Assembly: GCA_964592785.1 (NCBI GenBank)
Contig: CAZQHU010000006.1
Location: forward strand, 1 to 56,701
Length of the DNA: 56,701 nucleotides
Reading direction: 5' to 3'
Origin: an uncultured Gammaproteobacteria bacterium
GTDB lineage: Bacteria > Patescibacteriota > Patescibacteriia > Magasanikbacterales > UBA922
The notes under the pieces were generated by a model. The model was given only the letters and a program-made list of their open reading frames with translations, made no database searches and was not told where the DNA came from. The first letter of the stretch is position 1. Each line of letters begins with the position of its first letter. The position numbers and the translations under genes were made by a program. Of this stretch, positions 1,302 to 17,272 are shown one piece after another.

Positions 1302-1574
1302 TCATCTAGCAAAAATTACTACACAATTTCCTACCCCTTCCGCAACATCCTCCACCAAGGGATGTTTTTTTAAATAATCCAGTACTTCCTTTCGCAACTT
1401 CCCTGTGCCAAAACCATAAATTATTCGTACCATGGTTGCTTTTTCTTGATAATTTTTATAAAGAAAAGACTCCAAATTTGCCAGCGCTTCCTCAACATAA
1501 AAACCATGCAAATCCAACTCTGGCATCATCGCGCCCAATTCAACTGCAAAAATTTTGGCTTCTTTGTCGTTCAT
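1302..1574 (-). CDS. Stand-alone Smr-domain protein
   Basis: ELDLHG motif and RIIYGFGTGKLR (Smr consensus IIHGxG); 90 aa. Confidence 0.85.
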   Translation of the reverse strand: MNDKEAKIFAVELGAMMPELDLHGFYVEEALANLESFLYKNYQEKATMVRIIYGFGTGKLRKEVLDYLKKHPLVEDVAEGVGNCVVIFAR

Positions 1575-1777
1575 AATCTACTATTTACTTTTAAAATCAT
1601 TATCCTTATAATAAATACATTAAAATAGTTTCTGAATGGCATTTATTACTTAAATAATATCATAAATAAACTAAATAATTAACTAGTTCGGATATAACTT
1701 GTTGTCTGAAATAGCAAAAAATCTTTTTAAGAATTAATTTTGGATTTTTTTATTTTGGATGCAAAAATTTTAAAAAT

Positions 1778-2389
1778 ATGGGCAACGAATTAACAAGTGC
1801 GCTTGTGCTGGGTCTAATCGGTGGGGTAATTCCGGGACCGGTTTTAACGGCCACATTTACCGAAATTTTACAGTCCGGTATTCCAAAAAGTATGCGGATA
1901 ATTTTATGGGCGATGTTTACTGAAACCGTCGTTGCCCTAATAAGTTTATTGGCACTTTCATCAATGAATTTTTCTGAGAGCTTTTTTCAAGGTCTTTCGA
2001 TAATCGGCGCCGCCATCCTAATTTGGATTTCGACTTCGATATGGAAAGTCCACAAAATTGATAATGAGGAAAAAGTCCATTTCAGTCTTGGAAAAATATC
2101 AGCGATGATAATGGCGAATGGGGTGTTGTGGACTTTCTGGATTACCGTATGTGTGCCAAAAGCGATATTACTTAGTGAAAAGGTGGCTTTTGGCAACTAT
2201 CTTTTTCTACTACTCGTCGAAATCGGATGGCTAATCTCAACTGTCATGGTTGCGGTGGTATTTTCACGATTCAGAAAAATTCTTTCTAATCCAAAGGTTG
2301 TGCCAATTATTTTTAAAATTTTTGCTCTGACATTCATGTATTTCGCTGTCGATATGGTTTATCGTAGCATCAAGTTTTTCCTGACCTAA
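1778..2389 (+). CDS. LysE-family translocator (cassette 1)
   Basis: N-terminal GLIGGVIPGP motif, about six hydrophobic helices, 203 aa. Confidence 0.8.
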   Translation: MGNELTSALVLGLIGGVIPGPVLTATFTEILQSGIPKSMRIILWAMFTETVVALISLLALSSMNFSESFFQGLSIIGAAILIWISTSIWKVHKIDNEEKVHFSLGKISAMIMANGVLWTFWITVCVPKAILLSEKVAFGNYLFLLLVEIGWLISTVMVAVVFSRFRKILSNPKVVPIIFKIFALTFMYFAVDMVYRSIKFFLT

Positions 2390-2441
2390 AAAAATAAAAA
2401 AATCCAAAATTAATAATAAAGAGGAAAGATTTTTCGCTACA

Positions 2442-2595
2442 TCAGACAACACCGAATATGAGGTTCAAAAAATTTGCGTCATTTAATAATCAGCGGAGTG
2501 CAAATTTTTCTCAACCCAAATTTTTGCCCTTTTTCTCTATTGATATATAATAGGGAGGCGGGCAAAAACTTCTCATATTCGGATACGTTATGTGA
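2442..2595 (+). repeat. attC-like site 1
   Basis: TCAGACAAC-ACC-GAATATGAG ... CTCATATTC-GG-ATAC-GTTATGTGA, with two internal hairpins (AAAAATTTGC/GCAAATTTTT and TTTTTGCCC/GGGCAAAAA). Confidence 0.7.
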
Positions 2596-2646
2596 AATAT
2601 TTTTATTTCTACCAATAAATACAATAATAAAGAATAATTTTATTTT

Positions 2647-3162
2647 ATGCCGATAGACCAAAACACAACAGTCCAAGTCATAACCACTACTCAAATTATT
2701 GGCATAGGTGGAGTCTCAGCGATAGCTGGAAGTTTTTTTACACTGGCAGGCATAGGTTTAAAATCATTTTTTGAAGCAAAAGAAAACAAAAAAACAAGAT
2801 TGTTTGAAGCCAGAAAAAATGCTTACTCAAAATTAATAGGTCATTTAAACAATTCTTTTGCAAAATATGAATTTACGGTAGCAAATTATGACCCAGAAAC
2901 AATTTTAAAATCCCTTACAGCATATTCTATTAATTTAGATTATGAGTTTGCCGAGGCATTACTTTTTAGTAGCAATAAAGTAATGCTAAAAATAGAAGAA
3001 TACAGAAAAAAAATATATAGTTTAAAAAGTGCTGTTTTAGCAGATGCACATGAACAAAAATTACAAGTAACTTTTCACAAAAGAGTAGAAGAATCCCAAC
3101 AAACTCATAATGTTGCAAAAGAATTAATCAAAATGATGCGCGAAGAATTGGAAATAAAATAA
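2647..3162 (+). CDS. Hypothetical protein with N-terminal TM helix and helical C-terminus (cassette 2)
   Basis: 171-aa ORF; hydrophobic IIGIGGVSAIAGSFFTLAGIGL; very AT-rich. Confidence 0.7.
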   Translation: MPIDQNTTVQVITTTQIIGIGGVSAIAGSFFTLAGIGLKSFFEAKENKKTRLFEARKNAYSKLIGHLNNSFAKYEFTVANYDPETILKSLTAYSINLDYEFAEALLFSSNKVMLKIEEYRKKIYSLKSAVLADAHEQKLQVTFHKRVEESQQTHNVAKELIKMMREELEIK

Positions 3163-3209
3163 AATTATAAATTGATCAAATTAAATTTATTAATAGAAAT
3201 AAAAATACA

Positions 3210-3827
3210 TCACATAACACGGTATATCTGGCTACACTTTAAAAAATATTTGTAATTTATTTAATAAAAATATATGACAAAAAAATTTCTTCCAATCTTA
3301 CTACTATTTCCATTATTACTAACTGGTTGTAGTTTAAAAACAAACGAGGTAGAAAATGATACCAAGGCGTTTTCGTTAAAACAAGAATGTTTTAAATACA
3401 AAGAAGGCATACAAAAAGAATTTGATAATTTCAACACAAAACAACAACCCCAAGAAAGAGCTGACAATGATGGTTCTACTAGAAAATGTTATGAAAACAA
3501 GGAATTGAAAGAAATTTTTTATAGTAATAAACTCAATTCATGTGCACAAGTAGAAGTCCAAAAAACTTATTGCAACACACCTGATATGAAGTCTTATGGG
3601 GTTTCTTATGAGTACAACATACTTTCTAATGTTCTTACTGGAGAAACACTAGAATATATAAAAACAATTTCTCGTGGGGAAGGTTTTGAAACCCCACAAA
3701 GAACAAAAGAAATAATTGATAGCTATAGATAAATTACAAATATTTTTAGTTCCGCCCATATTTCGCGCACACAAGATAATAATTTAAGGAGTGCGCGAAA
3801 CATCAGATATACACGAACGTTCAGTGA
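3210..3827 (+). repeat. attC-like site 2, split by an inserted gene
   Basis: Left arm TCACATAAC-ACG-GTATATCTG (3210-3230); right arm CAGATATAC-A-CG-AAC-GTTCAGTGA (3804-3827). Confidence 0.6.
3274..3732 (+). CDS. Putative lipoprotein (inside attC-like site 2)
   Basis: Signal peptide with lipobox LLLTG-C; 152 aa with several Cys. Confidence 0.75.
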   Translation: MTKKFLPILLLFPLLLTGCSLKTNEVENDTKAFSLKQECFKYKEGIQKEFDNFNTKQQPQERADNDGSTRKCYENKELKEIFYSNKLNSCAQVEVQKTYCNTPDMKSYGVSYEYNILSNVLTGETLEYIKTISRGEGFETPQRTKEIIDSYR

Positions 3828-3842
3828 CATACCCAAAAAACC

Positions 3843-3870
3843 AAAAATACTCTCTGATGAGAGTATTTTT
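3843..3870 (-). terminator. Intrinsic terminator downstream of tRNA-Leu
   Basis: AAAAATACTCTC-TGAT-GAGAGTATTTTT. Confidence 0.7.
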
Positions 3871-3876
3871 ATTATG

Positions 3877-3958
3877 TGCTGGCGGAGAGACTCGAACTCT
3901 CAATCCTTGCGGAACGTGCTCCTAAGGCACGCGTGTATACCAATTCCACCACGCCAGC
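3877..3958 (-). tRNA. tRNA-Leu(TAG)
   Basis: GCTGGCG acceptor, anticodon arm CGTGC-CT TAG GA-GCACG, long variable arm, TTCGA T-loop; CCA not encoded. Confidence 0.96.
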
Positions 3959-3979
3959 ATATTTAATTGTACTTATTTT

Positions 3980-4060
3980 AAGCAAGCGTGTATACCCGCC
4001 CGCCATCACAAGCATGAGCTTGCTCAGGCGTTGCGGGCGGGCCAATTTCGCCACCGCGGC
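3980..4060 (-). pseudogene. tRNA-Leu-like 5' half with a 47-nt palindrome in the D-loop
   Basis: GCCGCGGTGGCGAAATTGG[insert 4041-3995]TATACACGCTTGCTT, then AT-rich sequence; no 3' half seen in the window. Confidence 0.6.
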
Positions 4061-4195
4061 TTTTAACTGCGATATTAAACCACAAACTAGAAAAAAAATC
4101 AACCCGCCGATGAGGCGGGTTTGACTTTATAAACTTTACCTGCCCGCTCGTACCTCGCATGGTAGGCGGGTGGACTTTTTACTTTTTGAACTCAA

Positions 4196-6478
4196 TTACC
4201 GATCCCTCTTAAAAAATCCACCGCGTTTTCTGTCACCACCGCGATCATTGCCACGACCACCTCGATCAAAACTACGTCCGCCACCATCACGAACAAAAGG
4301 TGCTGGAGGCACATAGCCTTCTGGCTTAGGTTTAAGAGCCTTGATAGAAAGATTAATACGTCCCAAGTTATCTATTTCCTTTACTTGTACTTTTACTTTA
4401 TCACCAAGATTCAAGATATCACCTGGTCGGCCGACACGATTCCAATCAATCTCGCTCACATGGACTAGTCCATCTTGACCAGGAAGAATCTGCACAAAAG
4501 CGCCAAAATCTTCCAAACGAACAACTTCACCTTCATAAATTTCTCCGGCAGTTACTTCGTGAGTAATATCATTGATAATCTTGATAGCTTTCTTCATCGC
4601 CTCGGCATCTACAGAAGTGACCAGCACTCGGCCATCTTGTTCAATATCAATGGAAACTCCTGTTTCCTCGGTAATCTTTTTGATAGTCTTGCCACCCGGG
4701 CCAATAAGGTCGCCGATCTTCTCTGGATCGATGCGCACTGTTTCAATACGTGGGGCATAAGGAGAAAGTTCCTTTCTCGGTTCAGCAATCACACTGGACA
4801 TTTTTTTCAAAATTTCCAATCTAGCATCTTTGGAACGCTTAAAAGTTTCTTCCACAATTTCCCAAGTCAGTCCATGAGTCTTGGTATCCATTTGAATAGC
4901 AGTCACCCCATCCGCAGTACCAGTAATTTTGAAGTCCATACCGCCAACTCCATCTTCCACATCTTGTAAATCAGTCAAAACTTTCCAATTTTTTATATTG
5001 TATTTTTCATCCATTTCAGAAGCCAAACCCATGGCAATACCAGCTACCGGTTTTTTGATTGGTACACCAGCTGCCATAAGTGACAAGGAAGAACCACAAG
5101 TAGAAGCCATAGAAGATGAACCATTTGAACCCAAAACTTCAGAAACCACCCGAATGGCATAGGGAAAATTTTCTTCTTCTGGTAAAACGGGTTCCAACGC
5201 TCTCTCGGCCAAAGCTCCATGACCGATCGCTCGTCTACCCAGTCCTCCAATGCGACCAGTTTCGCCGTAGCTATATGGAGCATCGTTATAATGATGCATA
5301 TAACGTTTGGTTCCTTCTTCTTCCATACTATCCAAGGTTTGCACATCTCCAGGAGCACCCAGAGTGACAATCGACAAAACTTGGGTATCGCCTCTCATAA
5401 ACATTCCTGAACCATGAACACGGGGCAAAAGATCAACTTCTACTTCCAAATTACGAATTTCATCGAGTTTACGACCATCCAATCTTTGATTTTTATCCAA
5501 AATTCTCTTGGTTATCTGCTCACAAACATATTCTTTCACTCTATCCAAAGCTGGTTTTTGCAAATCTTCTTCAAAACCCTGTTCGGTAAGAAGATCAACC
5601 AGACCATGTTTGATTTCGTCCACCATTTCCACTCTCTCAGTGCGAGAAATTTTTACAGAATTAAAAATCTTACTATCAGCCAAACTAGCAATATAATCTT
5701 TAGCAGTTTGTTTAGCTTGTTCAGCAGTTTTTTCTTTATCCTGAGCATCAGCCGAAGGATTCTCTCCCTCTTTGACCAATGAAATTTTTTCTTTGCCAAC
5801 TTCTGCTTGAATCTTATTAATAAAATCAATCACTGGTTGTAATTCTTGACAACCCCATTTCATAGCTTCCACTACTTTATTTTCAGATACTTCCCTAACA
5901 GCGGCCTCGGTCATAACCAATTTATCTGGTGTACCAGCCACTACTAAATCCAAAACATTTCCTTCCACTTGACTGTTCCCAAGATTCAAAATAAATTCCC
6001 CTTTTTCATCCAAACTAACCCGAGCGGCCGCGATCGGACCATCCCAAGGAATCGATGAAACTGCCAAAGCACAACTAGCACCAATAAGACCAACAATAGC
6101 TGGATCATTTTCACCATCAAAAGCCAAAGTGGTGACCACCACCTGCACTTCATTTCTAGTGCGGTCATCAAAAAGTGGACGAATCGCCCGATCAATAAGC
6201 CGTCCCGATAGGACCGCATCATCACTCGGTCGTCCTTCTCGTTTCACAAAACGTGAACCTTTAATTCTGCCGGCAGCATACATTTTTTCTTCAAAATCCA
6301 CAGTTAATGGAAAATAATCCAAACCTACTTTTTCTTCACTACTCTTGGTCACATTGACCATTACCACTGTCTCGCCATATTGAGCAGTACAAGATACAGT
6401 GGACAACAAAGCCAATCTGCCCATTTCTATTGAGAGTTCCCTGCCGCCCCAATTGAGCGACCATTTCTTAATGTTCAT
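4196..6478 (-). CDS. pnp: Polyribonucleotide nucleotidyltransferase (PNPase)
   Basis: FFPLTVD-like, RRAIGHG, SNGSSSMAS and GDMDFK-like motifs, KH and S1 domains, RGG-rich tail. Start trimmed to MNIKK at 6478. Confidence 0.98.
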   Translation of the reverse strand: MNIKKWSLNWGGRELSIEMGRLALLSTVSCTAQYGETVVMVNVTKSSEEKVGLDYFPLTVDFEEKMYAAGRIKGSRFVKREGRPSDDAVLSGRLIDRAIRPLFDDRTRNEVQVVVTTLAFDGENDPAIVGLIGASCALAVSSIPWDGPIAAARVSLDEKGEFILNLGNSQVEGNVLDLVVAGTPDKLVMTEAAVREVSENKVVEAMKWGCQELQPVIDFINKIQAEVGKEKISLVKEGENPSADAQDKEKTAEQAKQTAKDYIASLADSKIFNSVKISRTERVEMVDEIKHGLVDLLTEQGFEEDLQKPALDRVKEYVCEQITKRILDKNQRLDGRKLDEIRNLEVEVDLLPRVHGSGMFMRGDTQVLSIVTLGAPGDVQTLDSMEEEGTKRYMHHYNDAPYSYGETGRIGGLGRRAIGHGALAERALEPVLPEEENFPYAIRVVSEVLGSNGSSSMASTCGSSLSLMAAGVPIKKPVAGIAMGLASEMDEKYNIKNWKVLTDLQDVEDGVGGMDFKITGTADGVTAIQMDTKTHGLTWEIVEETFKRSKDARLEILKKMSSVIAEPRKELSPYAPRIETVRIDPEKIGDLIGPGGKTIKKITEETGVSIDIEQDGRVLVTSVDAEAMKKAIKIINDITHEVTAGEIYEGEVVRLEDFGAFVQILPGQDGLVHVSEIDWNRVGRPGDILNLGDKVKVQVKEIDNLGRINLSIKALKPKPEGYVPPAPFVRDGGGRSFDRGGRGNDRGGDRKRGGFFKRDR

Positions 6479-16324: not shown

Positions 16325-17272
16325 ATGTCTAAAACCTTATCCAATTATTTGACTGAATTTCTTGAATACCTGGAGATCGAACGCAATCGCAGTGACAAAA
16401 CTTTACGCAATTATGATTTTTATTTAAAAAGATTTACTGGCTGGCTGGGAGGAGACAAAAACCCAGAAGCTATAGACGCAGAAAAAATTCGACAATATCG
16501 TCTCTGGCTCAATCGTCTGGTAGATAATCATGGTGAACCTCTGAAAAAAAATACTCAAAACTACCATCTTATTGCTCTGCGCTCTTTTTTGAAATATTTA
16601 GCCAAACGCGATGTCAAAACTTTGGCTTCAGAAAAAATTGAATTGATGAAAATGCCAGATCGTGATGTTTCTTTTTTGGAAGGTGGCGATCTTAGCCGAC
16701 TATTGGAAGCGCCTATAAAAGAAAATGTTGATAACCAACTTATTCGTTACCGCGACAAAGCCATCTTGGAAATGCTTTTTTCCACTGGACTACGCGTCTC
16801 TGAATTGGTTGGCCTGAAGAAAGATAATCTAAATTTGAATCGTGAAGAATTTACTGTCACTGGTAAGGGGCGCAAAGCCCGAGTAGTTTTCCTTTCCGAA
16901 CAAGCCAAATACTGGCTAAAAAAATATTTGGGAGTCCGCCAAGATCCCAATCCTTTTTTATTTATTTCTCACGATTTACGCAATAGCAAAGGTAAAAAAG
17001 AAGTGACCGATCAACCACTAACAACCCGTTCAGTGGAAAGAATCGTTCGCAAATATGCACGTAGCGCCGGTATCACCAAAGCTGTCACCCCCCACACTCT
17101 ACGCCATTCCTATGCCACTGATTTATTACAAAATGGTGCAGACATTCGAAGTGTCCAAACTATGCTGGGCCACAGCTCCATCACAACCACCCAAATTTAT
17201 ACCCATATTACTGATAAAGAATTGAGAAATATTTACAAAAAATTTCATGGGAAAAATAGAGGAAATAATTGA
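16325..17272 (+). CDS. XerC/XerD-like tyrosine recombinase
   Basis: SAM-like N-terminal domain; TGLRVSEL, GKGRKAR, HTLRHSYAT and LGHSSITTTQIY catalytic motifs. Confidence 0.93.
   Translation: MSKTLSNYLTEFLEYLEIERNRSDKTLRNYDFYLKRFTGWLGGDKNPEAIDAEKIRQYRLWLNRLVDNHGEPLKKNTQNYHLIALRSFLKYLAKRDVKTLASEKIELMKMPDRDVSFLEGGDLSRLLEAPIKENVDNQLIRYRDKAILEMLFSTGLRVSELVGLKKDNLNLNREEFTVTGKGRKARVVFLSEQAKYWLKKYLGVRQDPNPFLFISHDLRNSKGKKEVTDQPLTTRSVERIVRKYARSAGITKAVTPHTLRHSYATDLLQNGADIRSVQTMLGHSSITTTQIYTHITDKELRNIYKKFHGKNRGNN

What the first reader, a model, noticed from the sequence alone, without database searches (positions are those of the whole stretch)
3210..3827. A whole lipoprotein gene sits inside the loop of an attC-like site
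Seen: the arms of site 2 (3210-3230 and 3804-3827) are about 570 bp apart. Site 1 has two internal hairpins. Site 2 also has two: TTTCGCGCAC/GTGCGCGAAA (3761-3800) and a perfect 19-bp stem AAAAATATTTGTAATTTAT/ATAAATTACAAATATTTTT (3242-3260 / 3729-3747), whose loop is the entire lipoprotein ORF, with the stem overlapping its stop codon. Inference: cargo carried within the recombination site itself, or an invertible or excisable nested unit. I know of no standard integron arrangement like this.
Basis: partly seen in the sequence, partly recalled or inferred. Interest (0 to 1): 0.8.

Follow-up and report, generated by a model that had tools for sequence, protein, structure and literature searches.

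The report
Gene nested inside integron-like recombination site
A complete lipoprotein gene sits inside one hairpin arm of a folded, attC-like recombination site; the site belongs to a widespread, apparently undescribed integron-like gene-cassette system of CPR/Patescibacteria, and such nested genes recur and travel with their cassettes.

Summary
The arms at 3206-3231 and 3804-3827, a perfect 19-nt inverted repeat (22 nt with one mismatch) and a second hairpin enclose the lipoprotein ORF 3274-3732.

The site belongs to a family of 75-223-nt three-way-junction sites. The family behaves like integron attC sites:
- Sites form arrays of small, unrelated ORFs.
- A tyrosine recombinase lies upstream and divergent in 13 of 14 loci.
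- The bases after GTT of one site complement the start of the next site, as expected for crossover at G|TT.

Window 1684-3827 is a recombinase-less array of two cassettes, LysE and ORF171. Site 2 is the ORF171 cassette's site, and the lipoprotein gene replaces exactly its first hairpin (hp1).

Gene-free homologues exist, one at the syntenic locus of a related Magasanikbacteria genome. At least five other cargo genes sit in hp1 elsewhere, each closed by an 18-26-nt stem. One such cassette occurs in two different array contexts.

The recombinase lacks the IntI-specific domain, so this is integron-like rather than a canonical integron. How the gene got in is unknown.

The parts
1684..1709 (+). 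attI-like site, or the right half of a site. It reads AGTTCGGATATAACTT|GTTGTCTGA, with the cassette junction at G1701|T1702.
   Evidence: It matches the conserved TTCGCATA..AAC..GTT sequence found between the recombinase gene and the first cassette in seven related loci. GTTGTCTGA is the exact complement of the site 1 R'' box TCAGACAAC.
1702..2587 (+). Cassette 1: the LysE-family ORF (1778-2389) plus site 1. Its terminal inverted repeats are 1701-1757 and 2391-2450, including a perfect 24-nt repeat at 1733-1756 / 2391-2414.
   Evidence: Pfam LysE match, 1.5e-8. Terminal repeat of 50 identical positions starting at GTT. Perfect 24-nt repeat.
2438..2595 (+). Site 1, an attC-like three-way junction. 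It comprises R'' TCAGACAAC, an L stem CGAATATGAG / CTCATATTCG, hp1 at 2467-2510, hp2 at 2520-2568 and R' GTTATGTGA (2587-2595).
   Evidence: Covariance model R1 scores 57.4 bits, E = 1.6e-11. DNA folds have z = -4.8 and -5.35. L283 holds a nearly identical site.
2524..2551 (+). Promoter-like TTGCCC-16-TATAAT inside the hp2 loop of site 1, facing ORF171.
   Evidence: Consensus scan, 10 of 12 positions. This is a prediction only.
2588..3819 (+). Cassette 2: ORF171 (2647-3162) plus site 2 with the nested lipoprotein gene. Its terminal inverted repeats are 2587-2648 and 3154-3218.
   Evidence: The site 1 R' GTTATGTGA is the exact complement of the site 2 R'' TCACATAAC. The 39-nt repeat is 85% complementary, and the terminal repeat extends to 62-65 nt, reaching the ORF's start and stop codons.
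3206..3231 (+). Site 2 left arm: TACATCA, R'' TCACATAAC (3210-3218) and L'' CGGTATATCTG (3220-3230).
   Evidence: Matches family profile positions 1-31, E = 3e-6. R1 aligns the left arm only.
3242..3263 (+). 5' strand of the expanded hp1 stem.
   Evidence: Compensatory changes relative to L004.
3274..3732 (+). Nested cargo: a 152-aa predicted lipoprotein with no Pfam family.
   Evidence: ORF and lipobox. No Pfam hit. Three homologues at 48-70% identity.
3726..3747 (+). 3' strand of the expanded hp1 stem; it overlaps the stop codon.
3750..3827 (+). The rest of site 2. It comprises the linker TTCCGCCCATAT (3750-3761), hp2 (3761-3800), L' CAGATATAC (3804-3812), the spacer ACGAAC and R' GTTCAGTGA (3819-3827). 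The junction is at G3819|T3820.
   Evidence: Matches family profile positions 48-96, E = 0.0014, against 0 of 200 shuffles. Shares the linker and ACATCAGATAT with L173 and L005.
3842..3871 (.). Bidirectional terminator-like hairpin between the end of the array and tRNA-Leu(tag) at 3876-3958 (-).

Best explanation
Window 1684-3827 is a short array of an integron-like gene-cassette system. It has no recombinase gene of its own, and the system is common in CPR/Patescibacteria. The array consists of an attI-like junction, a LysE cassette ending in site 1, and an ORF171 cassette ending in site 2.

The sites are attC-like. Conserved AAC...GTT boxes (R''/R') flank a covarying 11-bp L stem, and inside this sit two variable hairpins (hp1, hp2) joined by a conserved linker. 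In site 2 the variable hp1 arm has been expanded to hold a complete lipoprotein gene, and the 19-22-bp inverted repeat is the hp1 stem.

Proposed working. When the strand is single-stranded, the long stem zips up first and loops out the 462-nt gene. This brings the linker, hp2 and the R/L boxes back into the geometry of a roughly 150-nt site, so a tyrosine recombinase supplied in trans can still recombine it at G|TT. The nested gene is therefore part of the recombination site and moves with the ORF171 cassette as a second passenger.

The same design, an ORF looped out by a long stem that reaches its start and stop codons, is used for ordinary cassettes of this system.

Shown: site family membership, structure and covariation, array organisation, junction signature, recombinase linkage, gene-free homologues, recurrence of nested cargo, and the presence of one such cassette in two array contexts.

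Inferred: single-strand folding as the substrate, which strand is used, the clamp role of the stem, present-day activity of this copy, and how the gene entered the loop.
For: Family.
On inspection of the sequences nearly all are true sites.
- The three-way junction covaries: 96% of cells are paired, 17 pairs change on both sides, and 0 of 500 shuffles reach this.
- Model R1 finds 204 sites in those loci, all on one strand within each locus.

Integron-type junctions.
- R' of one site is the exact complement of R'' of the next site in 5 of 7 adjacent pairs. The figure is 12% for random pairs and 14% for R'' and R' of the same site.
- The same holds by eye for the attI-to-first-cassette junction in the loci.
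- In 13 of 14 cassettes, terminal inverted repeats of 20-100 nt start at the GTT.

Recombinase.
- A PF00589 + PF13495 protein lies upstream and divergent in 13 of 14 loci.
- Its best match among solved structures is the integron integrase VchIntIA, 2a3v, E = 2.5e-44.
- Loci chosen through the recombinase alone (Ca. Vogelbacteria L327, Ca. Kerfeldbacteria L331) carry sites after each small divergent ORF.

Site 2.
- The family profile matches it in two pieces that flank exactly the hp1 segment.
- Gene-free homologues are L173 and L005 14371-14167, which lies in the same tRNA-Leu/Smr gap of a related Magasanikbacteria genome.

Recurrence.
- hp1 holds other ORFs in L217/L232/L278 (82 aa), L224 (93 aa), L240 (53 aa), L319 and L210. 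Each is closed by an 18-26-nt repeat.

Maintenance of the stem.
- L004, whose protein is 70% identical, keeps a perfect 22-nt repeat through one paired substitution (G>A with C>T) and one paired insertion.

Mobility.
- The cassette carrying the nested 82-aa gene is 92% identical between L217 and L232. Similarity ends exactly at the downstream GTT, and the flanks are unrelated on both sides.

DNA-level role.
- The reverse-oriented cargo in L319 has a sigma-70-like promoter and a terminator inside the repeat, read from the sequence. L210 has a weaker promoter-like match and a hairpin at the corresponding positions. The repeat arms therefore lie outside the cargo transcript.
Against: - No cognate recombinase lies in the 56.7-kb window. 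The only tyrosine recombinase (16325-17272) is XerC/D-like and about 33% identical to the array-linked family.
- The array-linked recombinase is about 42 residues shorter than VchIntIA in the stretch where their alignment breaks. That stretch is where IntI carries its extra domain, by my own knowledge of the IntI structure. It also scores below the curated integron-integrase cut-off, 224 against 265 bits.
- Nothing here shows recombination directly. There are no reads, no circular forms and no assay.
- The strand that folds could not be inferred: 11 against 17 G-T-type mismatches, p = 0.34.
- For the forward-oriented lipoprotein gene, no promoter is predicted inside the repeat. Both arms could therefore be transcribed, and an RNA-level role is not excluded.
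- In L001 the outer arms have decayed while a 30-nt repeat around the gene persists. The repeat may therefore also serve the gene itself.
- How the gene entered hp1 is unexplained.
- The pattern-based sample is biased towards one sub-family of sites.
Confidence: 0.75

Rival explanations
1. The inverted repeat works in RNA. The 5' and 3' untranslated ends of the lipoprotein message pair into a 22-bp duplex that sets mRNA processing (an RNase III-type site), stability or translation. Its position inside a recombination site would then be incidental.
For: - No promoter is predicted between the left arm and the start codon. The nearest promoter-like site lies in site 1, and a terminator follows site 2, so both arms may be co-transcribed.
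- The repeats reach the start and stop codons of all three ORFs.
- L001 keeps the repeat although its outer arms have decayed.
Against: - In L319, and less clearly in L210, the cargo reads the other way with its own promoter-like and terminator-like signals inside the repeat. The arms are therefore not in the cargo mRNA.
- In ordinary cassettes the equivalent long repeats run directly into the R boxes and start exactly at the crossover GTT.
- G-U-type mismatches show no bias towards the sense strand.
Confidence: 0.1
2. The repeat-flanked gene is a separate small mobile module, a MITE-like or otherwise targeted insertion comparable to the IS1111-attC elements or group IIC-attC introns of classical integrons. 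It inserted into the hp1 loop and may disable the site.
For: - Sites of one sub-family share the outer hp1 stem but hold different cargo, each with its own inner repeat: L217 against L240, and window/L004 against L224.
- The repeat GAGCCCTTTTGAAAT brackets reverse-oriented genes in hp1 of L319 and L210, and also in an ordinary cassette of L283.
Against: - The units contain no transposase, reverse transcriptase or other mobility gene.
- The window copy has no target-site duplication.
- Repeat sequences differ between cargo groups.
- The cassette with a nested gene occurs in two array contexts, which argues that the site still works.
Confidence: 0.1
3. The repeat marks an invertible segment: a phase-variable surface lipoprotein gene flipped by a site-specific invertase.
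For: Repeats of 19-22 nt about 460 nt apart around a surface-protein gene resemble known invertible segments. Nested cargo occurs in both orientations in different loci.
Against: - Within each cargo group the orientation is constant: window, L004 and L001 in one group, and L217, L232 and L278 in another.
- No invertase lies nearby.
- Repeat sequences are not shared across groups, as they would be for a dedicated invertase.
- The same long-stem design brackets ordinary cassettes.
Confidence: 0.03
4. The two arms belong to separate degenerate sites, or the arrangement is an assembly artefact.
For: The arms are 570 nt apart, far beyond usual attC lengths. The window could not be checked against reads.
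Against: - The order of left arm, hp1 stem, linker, hp2 and right arm follows the family consensus, with only hp1 replaced.
- The L stem pairs: GTATATCTG with CAGATATAC.
- Independent assemblies reproduce the architecture.
- A syntenic gene-free homologue exists.
Confidence: 0.02

Closest known systems
Integron gene cassettes and attC sites (IntI-type integrons, including sedentary chromosomal integrons such as the Vibrio array with its VCR sites)
   Same: - Co-oriented arrays of small, mostly orphan or defence-type ORFs, each followed by an imperfect palindromic site with conserved ...AAC / GTT... boxes and covarying inner stems.
- The bases after GTT belong to the next cassette, implying crossover at or near G|TT.
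- A divergent tyrosine recombinase with an attI-like site next to it.
- ORF-less cassettes occur.
- Arrays without a recombinase gene occur (CALIN-like).
   Different: - The recombinase is short (about 270 aa) and is about 42 residues shorter than VchIntIA where the IntI-specific domain lies.
- Sites have a conserved three-way junction, with conserved sequence (TACATCA, CCCAWAT, AACWTC, GAWAC) beyond the R boxes.
- The R stem continues as a 20-100-nt terminal repeat that reaches the ORF.
- Site arms can hold whole genes, giving sites of 398-855 nt. The usual attC range of about 57-141 nt is from my own knowledge.
- The hosts are CPR/Patescibacteria.
Group IIC-attC introns and IS1111-attC insertion sequences (mobile elements that insert into attC sites)
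   Same: A protein-coding gene ends up physically inside an attC-type site.
   Different: Those elements encode their own reverse transcriptase or transposase and have defined ends. Here the cargo is an ordinary lipoprotein or small orphan gene with no mobility function, and it is enclosed by a stem that continues the site's own hairpin.
Xer-type recombinases acting on folded single-stranded sites (XerCD with the CTX-phage attP; archaeal XerA)
   Same: A Xer-like tyrosine recombinase without the IntI insertion. The NCBIfam XerA/integron-integrase model is passed at 244 against a cut-off of 220 bits. The presumed substrate is a folded single strand.
   Different: Xer systems act on one dif-like site and integrate whole elements. 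They do not build arrays of cassettes with a junction signature.
attC-type sites and integron parts in phage genomes (PMC9892861, title and abstract only)
   Same: One complete family site lies in a phage-like contig, just upstream of terL (L173).
   Different: It is a single site, with no recombinase or array on the 10.8-kb contig.

Membership tests
Integron (IntI-type) | Integrase is a tyrosine recombinase carrying the IntI-specific additional domain around patch III (Messier & Roy 2001, as cited in PMC9668308). | tested here: not met
   The array-linked recombinase aligns to VchIntIA (2a3v) in two stretches. It has 26 residues where IntI has 68. TIGR02249 scores 224 bits against a cut-off of 265. 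No such gene lies in the window.
Integron (IntI-type) | Recombinase gene divergent from the cassette array, with an attI site between them. | tested here: met
   Met in related loci only. The geometry holds in 13 of 14 loci. A conserved TTCGCATA...GTT sequence, in several of them with a second upstream copy of the motif, precedes the first cassette in seven loci. It is confirmed in loci picked through the recombinase alone, L327 and L331. The window has only the attI-like junction (1684-1703), next to an Smr gene.
Integron (IntI-type) | attC sites: imperfect palindromes with R''(..AAC)-L''...L'-R'(GTT..), conserved in structure rather than in sequence. | tested here: met
   AAC/GTT are invariant. 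The L stem and both hairpins covary: 17 pairs change on both sides, and 0 of 500 shuffles reach this. The official attC model of IntegronFinder could not be run.
Integron (IntI-type) | Extrahelical bases and an unpaired central spacer that mark the recombined (bottom) strand. | tested here: inconclusive
   An asymmetric bulge (1 nt against 3-4 nt) lies between the R and L boxes, and a subset has an extra G in L'. The layout differs from canonical sites, and the folding strand could not be inferred.
Integron (IntI-type) | Crossover at G|TT, so that the distal part of R' belongs to the downstream cassette. | tested here: met
   Exact complement in 5 of 7 adjacent pairs, against 12% at random. 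All three window junctions fit. Similarity between L217 and L232 ends exactly at GTT. There are exceptions, such as the 5' junction of L217.
Integron (IntI-type) | Recombination of cassettes demonstrated: circles, excision or insertion. | not testable with these tools
   No reads or experiments. There is only comparative evidence, namely the same cassette in two contexts and different cassettes at the syntenic locus of L005.
CPR three-way-junction site family (defined here) | Left arm TACATCA-NNN-AAC-AC-L'', hp1, linker CCCAWAT, hp2, AACWTC-L'-GAWAC-GTT, in that order. | tested here: met
   Site 1 scores 57 bits with model R1. Site 2 matches the profile in two pieces around hp1.
Invertible DNA segment (inverton) | Both orientations present, and a nearby invertase. 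| tested here: not met
   Homologues show one orientation only, and no invertase is adjacent. Reads were not available.
Known RNA families (Rfam 15) | A match to any curated structured-RNA model. | tested here: not met
   Apart from tRNA-Leu, every match at E up to 10 in 2380-4200 is far below its family's gathering score, and none corresponds to the sites.

The most novel reading that the evidence does not exclude
The hairpin loops of these sites are the places where new genes are captured. ORF-less cassettes are bare folded sites, and DNA inserted into a loop becomes a new cassette gene or a nested gene. The loop may be the R-extension hairpin, hp1 or hp2. The stem persists as the long repeat that brackets the ORF. 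This would be a concrete route to cassette genesis, in an integron-like system run by a Xer-like recombinase that may predate or parallel IntI. Observations that fit are the high-GC foreign genes inside hp1 of AT-rich arrays (L319, L210), ORF-less cassettes whose R stems close loops of about 10 nt, and ordinary ORFs bracketed up to their start and stop codons.
Probability: 0.2. Interest if true: 0.9.

Novelty: new variant of a known kind. Interest (0 to 1): 0.8.

Why it matters
It matters in three ways.

1. **A new home and a new recombinase type for cassette arrays.** It puts an integron-type gene-capture platform into the CPR/Patescibacteria. Their reduced genomes are not known for integrons. 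The recombinase is annotated only as 'XerD' or 'tyrosine recombinase' and lacks the domain that defines IntI. At least 5,648 protein clusters match it at E <= 1e-40. This bears on how integron integrases arose from Xer-like ancestors.

2. **A recombination site can carry cargo inside itself.** One cassette then moves two genes, and site length stops being a usable criterion. Tools that cap attC length (about 200 nt in IntegronFinder, from my own knowledge) would miss or split these sites.

3. **A way to test how cassettes form.** The common design is an ORF looped out by a stem that is part of the site, and foreign high-GC genes sit in such loops. How genes become cassettes is a long-standing open question, and this gives it a testable form.

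Tried and rejected
- **Known RNA families.** Rfam at gathering and at E <= 10 gave nothing for the sites. I checked by eye for a hammerhead-like CUGAUGA...GAAA core on the minus strand. The motif is not conserved in site 1, so I rejected it.
- **Exact-protein look-up.** Neither cassette ORF is on record.
- **Simple motif searches.** Within the window they find only the two sites. In the PNPase-synteny loci, regular expressions found nothing convincing; the covariance model later found the two L005 sites.
- **A looser DNA pattern.** With about 14 specified bases it saturated with chance hits in viral contigs, so I tightened it.
- **Strand-of-folding test.** G-T against A-C single mismatches gave 11 against 17, p = 0.34, which is uninformative.
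- **Pfam and NCBIfam on ORF171, the lipoprotein and five other nested ORFs.** No families passed the curated cut-offs.
- **tRNA-Leu integration.** An element integrated at tRNA-Leu with att repeats would not explain the window, which has no repeat of the tRNA 3' end. Such a duplication does exist in L005, around a HicAB pair.
- **Literature.** Searches for integrons or attC in Patescibacteria, CPR, Parcubacteria and Saccharibacteria returned nothing relevant.
- **Origin of the nested gene.** I considered fusion of two cassettes; it would need two separate deletions. I also considered integrase-mediated insertion at a secondary site; the unit has no attC of its own. Neither is supported.
Full report
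**1. What is in the sequence**

Region 1500-4000 of the window is AT-rich, 31-33% G+C against about 39% elsewhere. It lies between an Smr-domain gene (1302-1574, minus strand) and tRNA-Leu(tag) (3876-3958, minus strand) followed by PNPase.

- Left arm at 3206-3231 and right arm at 3804-3827.
- A perfect 19-nt inverted repeat at 3242-3260 / 3729-3747, or 22 nt with one mismatch.
- A second hairpin at 3761-3800.
- A 152-aa ORF (3274-3732) with a lipoprotein signal, MTKKFLPILLLFPLLLTGC. Its stop codon lies in the right repeat arm.

Site 1 (2438-2595) and site 2 both fold as three-way junctions. The repeat is far beyond chance: simulated sequences reach 16 nt at most, in 0 of 500 runs more. The only other perfect repeat of at least 19 nt in the 56.7-kb window brackets the neighbouring LysE gene.

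**2. The sites belong to a large family**

The two sites share TACATCA-N-A-Y-AACAC at the 5' end and ACGTT-NN-GTGA at the 3' end, while their inner stems differ in a compensatory way.

A pattern built from these features found one true hit among viral contigs, L173.

The family consensus is: TACATCA-NNN-AAC-AC-[L'' of about 10 nt]-hp1-(T/C)CNCCCAWAT-hp2-AACWTC-[L']-GAWAC-GTT-NNNNNN.

An alignment of 35 short members gives the following figures.
- 96% of cells in the proposed structure are paired.
- 17 of 29 pairs change on both sides.
- 0 of 500 shuffles reach the observed values.
- Slid controls pair at only 29-40%.

A covariance model built from this alignment (R1) finds site 1 at 57 bits, only the left arm of site 2, and nothing else in the window. 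It finds 204 sites in the 120 loci. Within every locus all sites are on one strand, spaced roughly 0.5-2.5 kb apart.

**3. The family behaves like integron attC sites**

(a) A tyrosine recombinase (PF00589 + PF13495) is encoded in 14 of the loci. In 13 of them it lies upstream of the sites and is transcribed divergently.

(b) Between the recombinase and the first cassette is a conserved sequence, (A)GTTCGCATAA..AAC..|GTT. Several of the loci show a second copy of the motif about 45 nt upstream. This resembles an attI site.

(c) The six bases after GTT of one site are the exact complement of the bases before AAC of the next site in 5 of 7 adjacent pairs. The rate is 12% for random pairs and 14% for R'' and R' of the same site. 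The first-cassette junctions show the same. This is the signature of cassettes cut and joined at or next to G|TT.

(d) The complementarity continues after a conserved 2-nt mismatch. In 13 of 14 cassettes a terminal inverted repeat of 20-100 nt starts at the GTT. In single-gene cassettes it ends within about 20 nt of the start and stop codons.

(e) Cargo is small and varied. The recombinase was checked against profile libraries. HicA, MazG and a weak DpnI match come from precomputed Pfam marks on the recombinase-chosen loci. Methylase-like and reverse-transcriptase-like ORFs were judged by eye only.

(f) As an independent test I chose loci through the recombinase alone. In Ca. Vogelbacteria (L327) and Ca. 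Kerfeldbacteria (L331), R1 finds sites after the small divergent ORFs next to the recombinase. Two other loci showed none.

**4. The recombinase is integron-like but not IntI**

- Its best match among solved structures is the Vibrio integron integrase (2a3v, E = 2.5e-44).
- The alignment breaks into two stretches, with 26 residues facing 68 of IntI. By my own knowledge of the IntI structure, this is where IntI has its specific extra domain.
- The curated integron-integrase model is missed (224 against 265 bits), while the XerA/'integron integrase' model is passed (244 against 220).
- At least 5,648 protein clusters match at E <= 1e-40. The best 120 are 76-100% identical (nearly all 77-84%). 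Those that carry an organism name are mostly from several CPR lineages, with one labelled Actinomycetota. They are named only 'tyrosine-type recombinase/integrase' or 'XerD'.
- The window's own recombinase (16325-17272) is XerC/D-like and only about 33% identical to this family.

**5. Reading the window with this key**

- GTTGTCTGA at 1701-1709 is the exact complement of the site 1 R'' box TCAGACAAC, and it is preceded by an attI-like AGTTCGGATATAACTT. Cassette 1 is therefore 1702-2587: LysE plus site 1, with terminal repeats at 1701-1757 / 2391-2450.
- Cassette 2 is 2588-3819: ORF171 plus site 2, with terminal repeats at 2587-2648 / 3154-3218.
- The array ends at a terminator in front of tRNA-Leu.
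- In related Magasanikbacteria genomes the order S15-NYN-PNPase-tRNA-Leu-[variable gap]-Smr-(23S) is conserved, and the gap holds different genes.
- In L005 (UBA11710) the gap holds two family sites on the corresponding strand.

**6. The nested gene**

A sequence-only profile of gene-free sites matches site 2 in two pieces. Positions 1-31 match 3206-3236 and positions 48-96 match 3751-3828. None of 200 shuffles scores comparably. The piece without a match is hp1, so the gene and its repeat stand exactly where hp1 stands.

Gene-free counterparts exist.
- L173, and identical sites such as that of L236, have a 7-bp hp1 with a 4-nt loop between the same flanks.
- The first L005 site reads TAACACGGTATATCTGGCTACAC-[about 40 nt]-TTCCACCCATAT...ACATCAGATATGCCGAAACGTT. 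Its arms are almost identical to those of site 2, and it lies at the syntenic locus.

The lipoprotein has three homologues.
- L004 (70% identity) has the same left arm and a perfect 22-nt repeat. Compared with the window it shows one paired substitution and one paired insertion.
- L001 (48% identity) has a 30-nt repeat at 90%, but its outer arms are decayed.
- L003 has no repeat.

**7. Nested genes recur**

89 pattern-anchored sites could be closed with a right arm: 82 short ones (69-211 nt) and seven above 230 nt, all of which carry an ORF in hp1. Together with a stricter search and inspection, the gene-bearing sites are:

| Site | Length (nt) | Nested ORF | Closing repeat (nt) |
|---|---|---|---|
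| Window site 2 | 616 | 152 aa | 19-22 |
| L217, L232, L278 | 398 | 82 aa | 18 |
| L224 | 461 | 93 aa | 22, perfect |
| L240 | 592 | 53 aa | 20 (read by eye) |
| L319 | 710 | about 100 aa, reverse strand | 26, plus an inner 11 |
| L210 | 855 | about 140 aa, reverse strand | 24, plus an inner 11 |

- The L240 site also has a roughly 310-nt insert in hp2.
- The cargo of L319 and L210 is 57-63% G+C in loci of 38-40%. In L319 it has its own Shine-Dalgarno sequence, a near-consensus promoter and a terminator, all inside the repeat. L210 has a Shine-Dalgarno sequence and weaker promoter- and terminator-like signals.
- None of the nested ORFs has a Pfam family.
- Sites of one sub-family share the outer hp1 stem but carry different cargo: L217 against L240, and window/L004 against L224.

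**8. A gene-bearing site has been mobilised**

The 1.16-kb cassette in L217, consisting of a 230-aa ORF and a site with the nested 82-aa gene, is 92% identical to the one in L232 and L278. Similarity stops exactly at the T of the downstream GTT. Upstream it stops at the preceding site, and both flanks are unrelated.

The simplest reading is that the cassette moved, or its neighbours were exchanged, while the gene was already inside the site. One irregularity remains: the 5' junction in L217 (GTTAGGCGA) does not match the cassette's own R''. Crossover position, or later events, are therefore not always clean.

**9. How it most likely works, and what remains open**

I take the stem to be a clamp. 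It nucleates folding and restores the geometry of a short site, so that the recombinase, supplied in trans for this array, can still use it. The lipoprotein gene is then a second passenger of the ORF171 cassette.

- Expression may come from the promoter-like site in the hp2 loop of site 1, together with ORF171, ending at the terminator at 3842-3871. This is a prediction only.
- The folding strand is undetermined.
- An RNA-level role of the stem is not excluded for this forward-oriented gene. It cannot apply to the L319 cargo, and probably not to the L210 cargo.
- Templated correction of quasi-palindromes during replication could also keep the arms identical without selection. The paired changes in L004 are therefore weaker evidence of function than they look.
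- How genes enter hairpin loops is unknown.
- Ordinary cassettes look the same, with an ORF in a loop closed by a stem that is part of the site, and ORF-less cassettes have R stems closing loops of about 10 nt (L324, L211). This suggests, but does not show, that loops are capture points.

**10. Comparison and novelty**

The system works like an integron. It meets the tests for array organisation, attC-like structure, junction signature and recombinase/attI geometry. It fails the defining IntI-domain test, and recombination itself is untested.

Genes inside attC sites are known to me only as self-mobile insertions (group IIC-attC introns, IS1111-attC), not as ordinary cargo enclosed by the site's own hairpin.

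Full-text searches found no description of integrons or attC-like arrays in CPR bacteria. Absence from that library is not proof of absence.

I rate it a new variant of a known kind, with high interest.

Noticed in passing
L173 10684-10796 (-), IMG/VR contig IMGVR_UViG_3300001336_000172: A phage-like contig encoding terminase large subunit-, portal- and capsid-like ORFs (judged by eye) carries one complete family site directly upstream of terL. The predicted terL start overlaps the right arm of the site.
   Followed up: partly
L005 13235-13290 and 12655-12710: The terminator and the first ~13 nt of the 3' end of tRNA-Leu are duplicated. A HicA/HicB-like pair lies between the copies. This looks like a small islet integrated at the tRNA, next to the cassette array.
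   Followed up: no
window 3960-4170: A G+C-rich stretch with several hairpins lies between tRNA-Leu and PNPase. It includes a 15-nt near-copy of a stretch within tRNA-Leu (3982-3996 against 3927-3941). L005 and L006 have a spacer of similar length there. It has no Rfam match above threshold.
   Followed up: no
window 1733-1756 / 2391-2414 and 2634-2648 / 3154-3168: The LysE gene is bracketed by a perfect 24-nt inverted repeat. ORF171 is bracketed by a perfect 15-nt repeat that overlaps its start and stop codons. These are the inner parts of the cassettes' terminal repeats.
   Followed up: yes
L319 2075-2793 (+), L210 1802-2665 (+), L283 about 4930-5350 (+): High-GC reverse-oriented genes (57-63% G+C in loci of 38-40%) are flanked by the same repeat, GAGCCCTTTTGAAAT. 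Two lie inside hp1 of a site, and one in an ordinary cassette. L319 and L283 carry their own promoter-like and terminator-like signals; L210 has weaker ones. This may be a shared module or an operator.
   Followed up: partly
L240 site (minus strand, 592 nt): Besides a 53-aa ORF in hp1, the hp2 arm holds an insert of about 310 nt with a G+C-rich structured stretch. The second arm can therefore also be expanded.
   Followed up: no
hp1/hp2 loops of many short sites (e.g. window 2546-2560, 3776-3792; L282, L258, L262): Loops often carry a TATAAT-like box followed by AAGGAG(T). Some form credible sigma-70 promoters facing the next cassette, such as window 2524-2551. The purpose of the AAGGAG part is unexplained.
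   Followed up: partly
L324 (minus strand, just after the attI-like site); L211 (minus strand, just downstream of the site at 2550-2659): ORF-less cassettes have a second, G+C-rich type of site, whose R stem closes a loop of only about 10 nt (GTTATGACGCCA-loop-TGGCGTCATAAC). More than one site type therefore shares the same arrays.
   Followed up: partly
L005-L009, L050 and window 1302-3958: The interval between tRNA-Leu(tag) and the Smr gene next to 23S rRNA is a variable hotspot in Magasanikbacteria-like genomes, 0.7-2.4 kb with unrelated genes. Only the window and L005 show family sites there.
   Followed up: partly
P0005-P0124: The array-linked recombinase family is very large and unusually conserved: the best 120 clusters are 76-100% identical (nearly all 77-84%), and the named ones come mostly from distant CPR lineages. 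PNPase is only 50-65% identical between CPR genomes. This suggests recent horizontal spread.
   Followed up: partly
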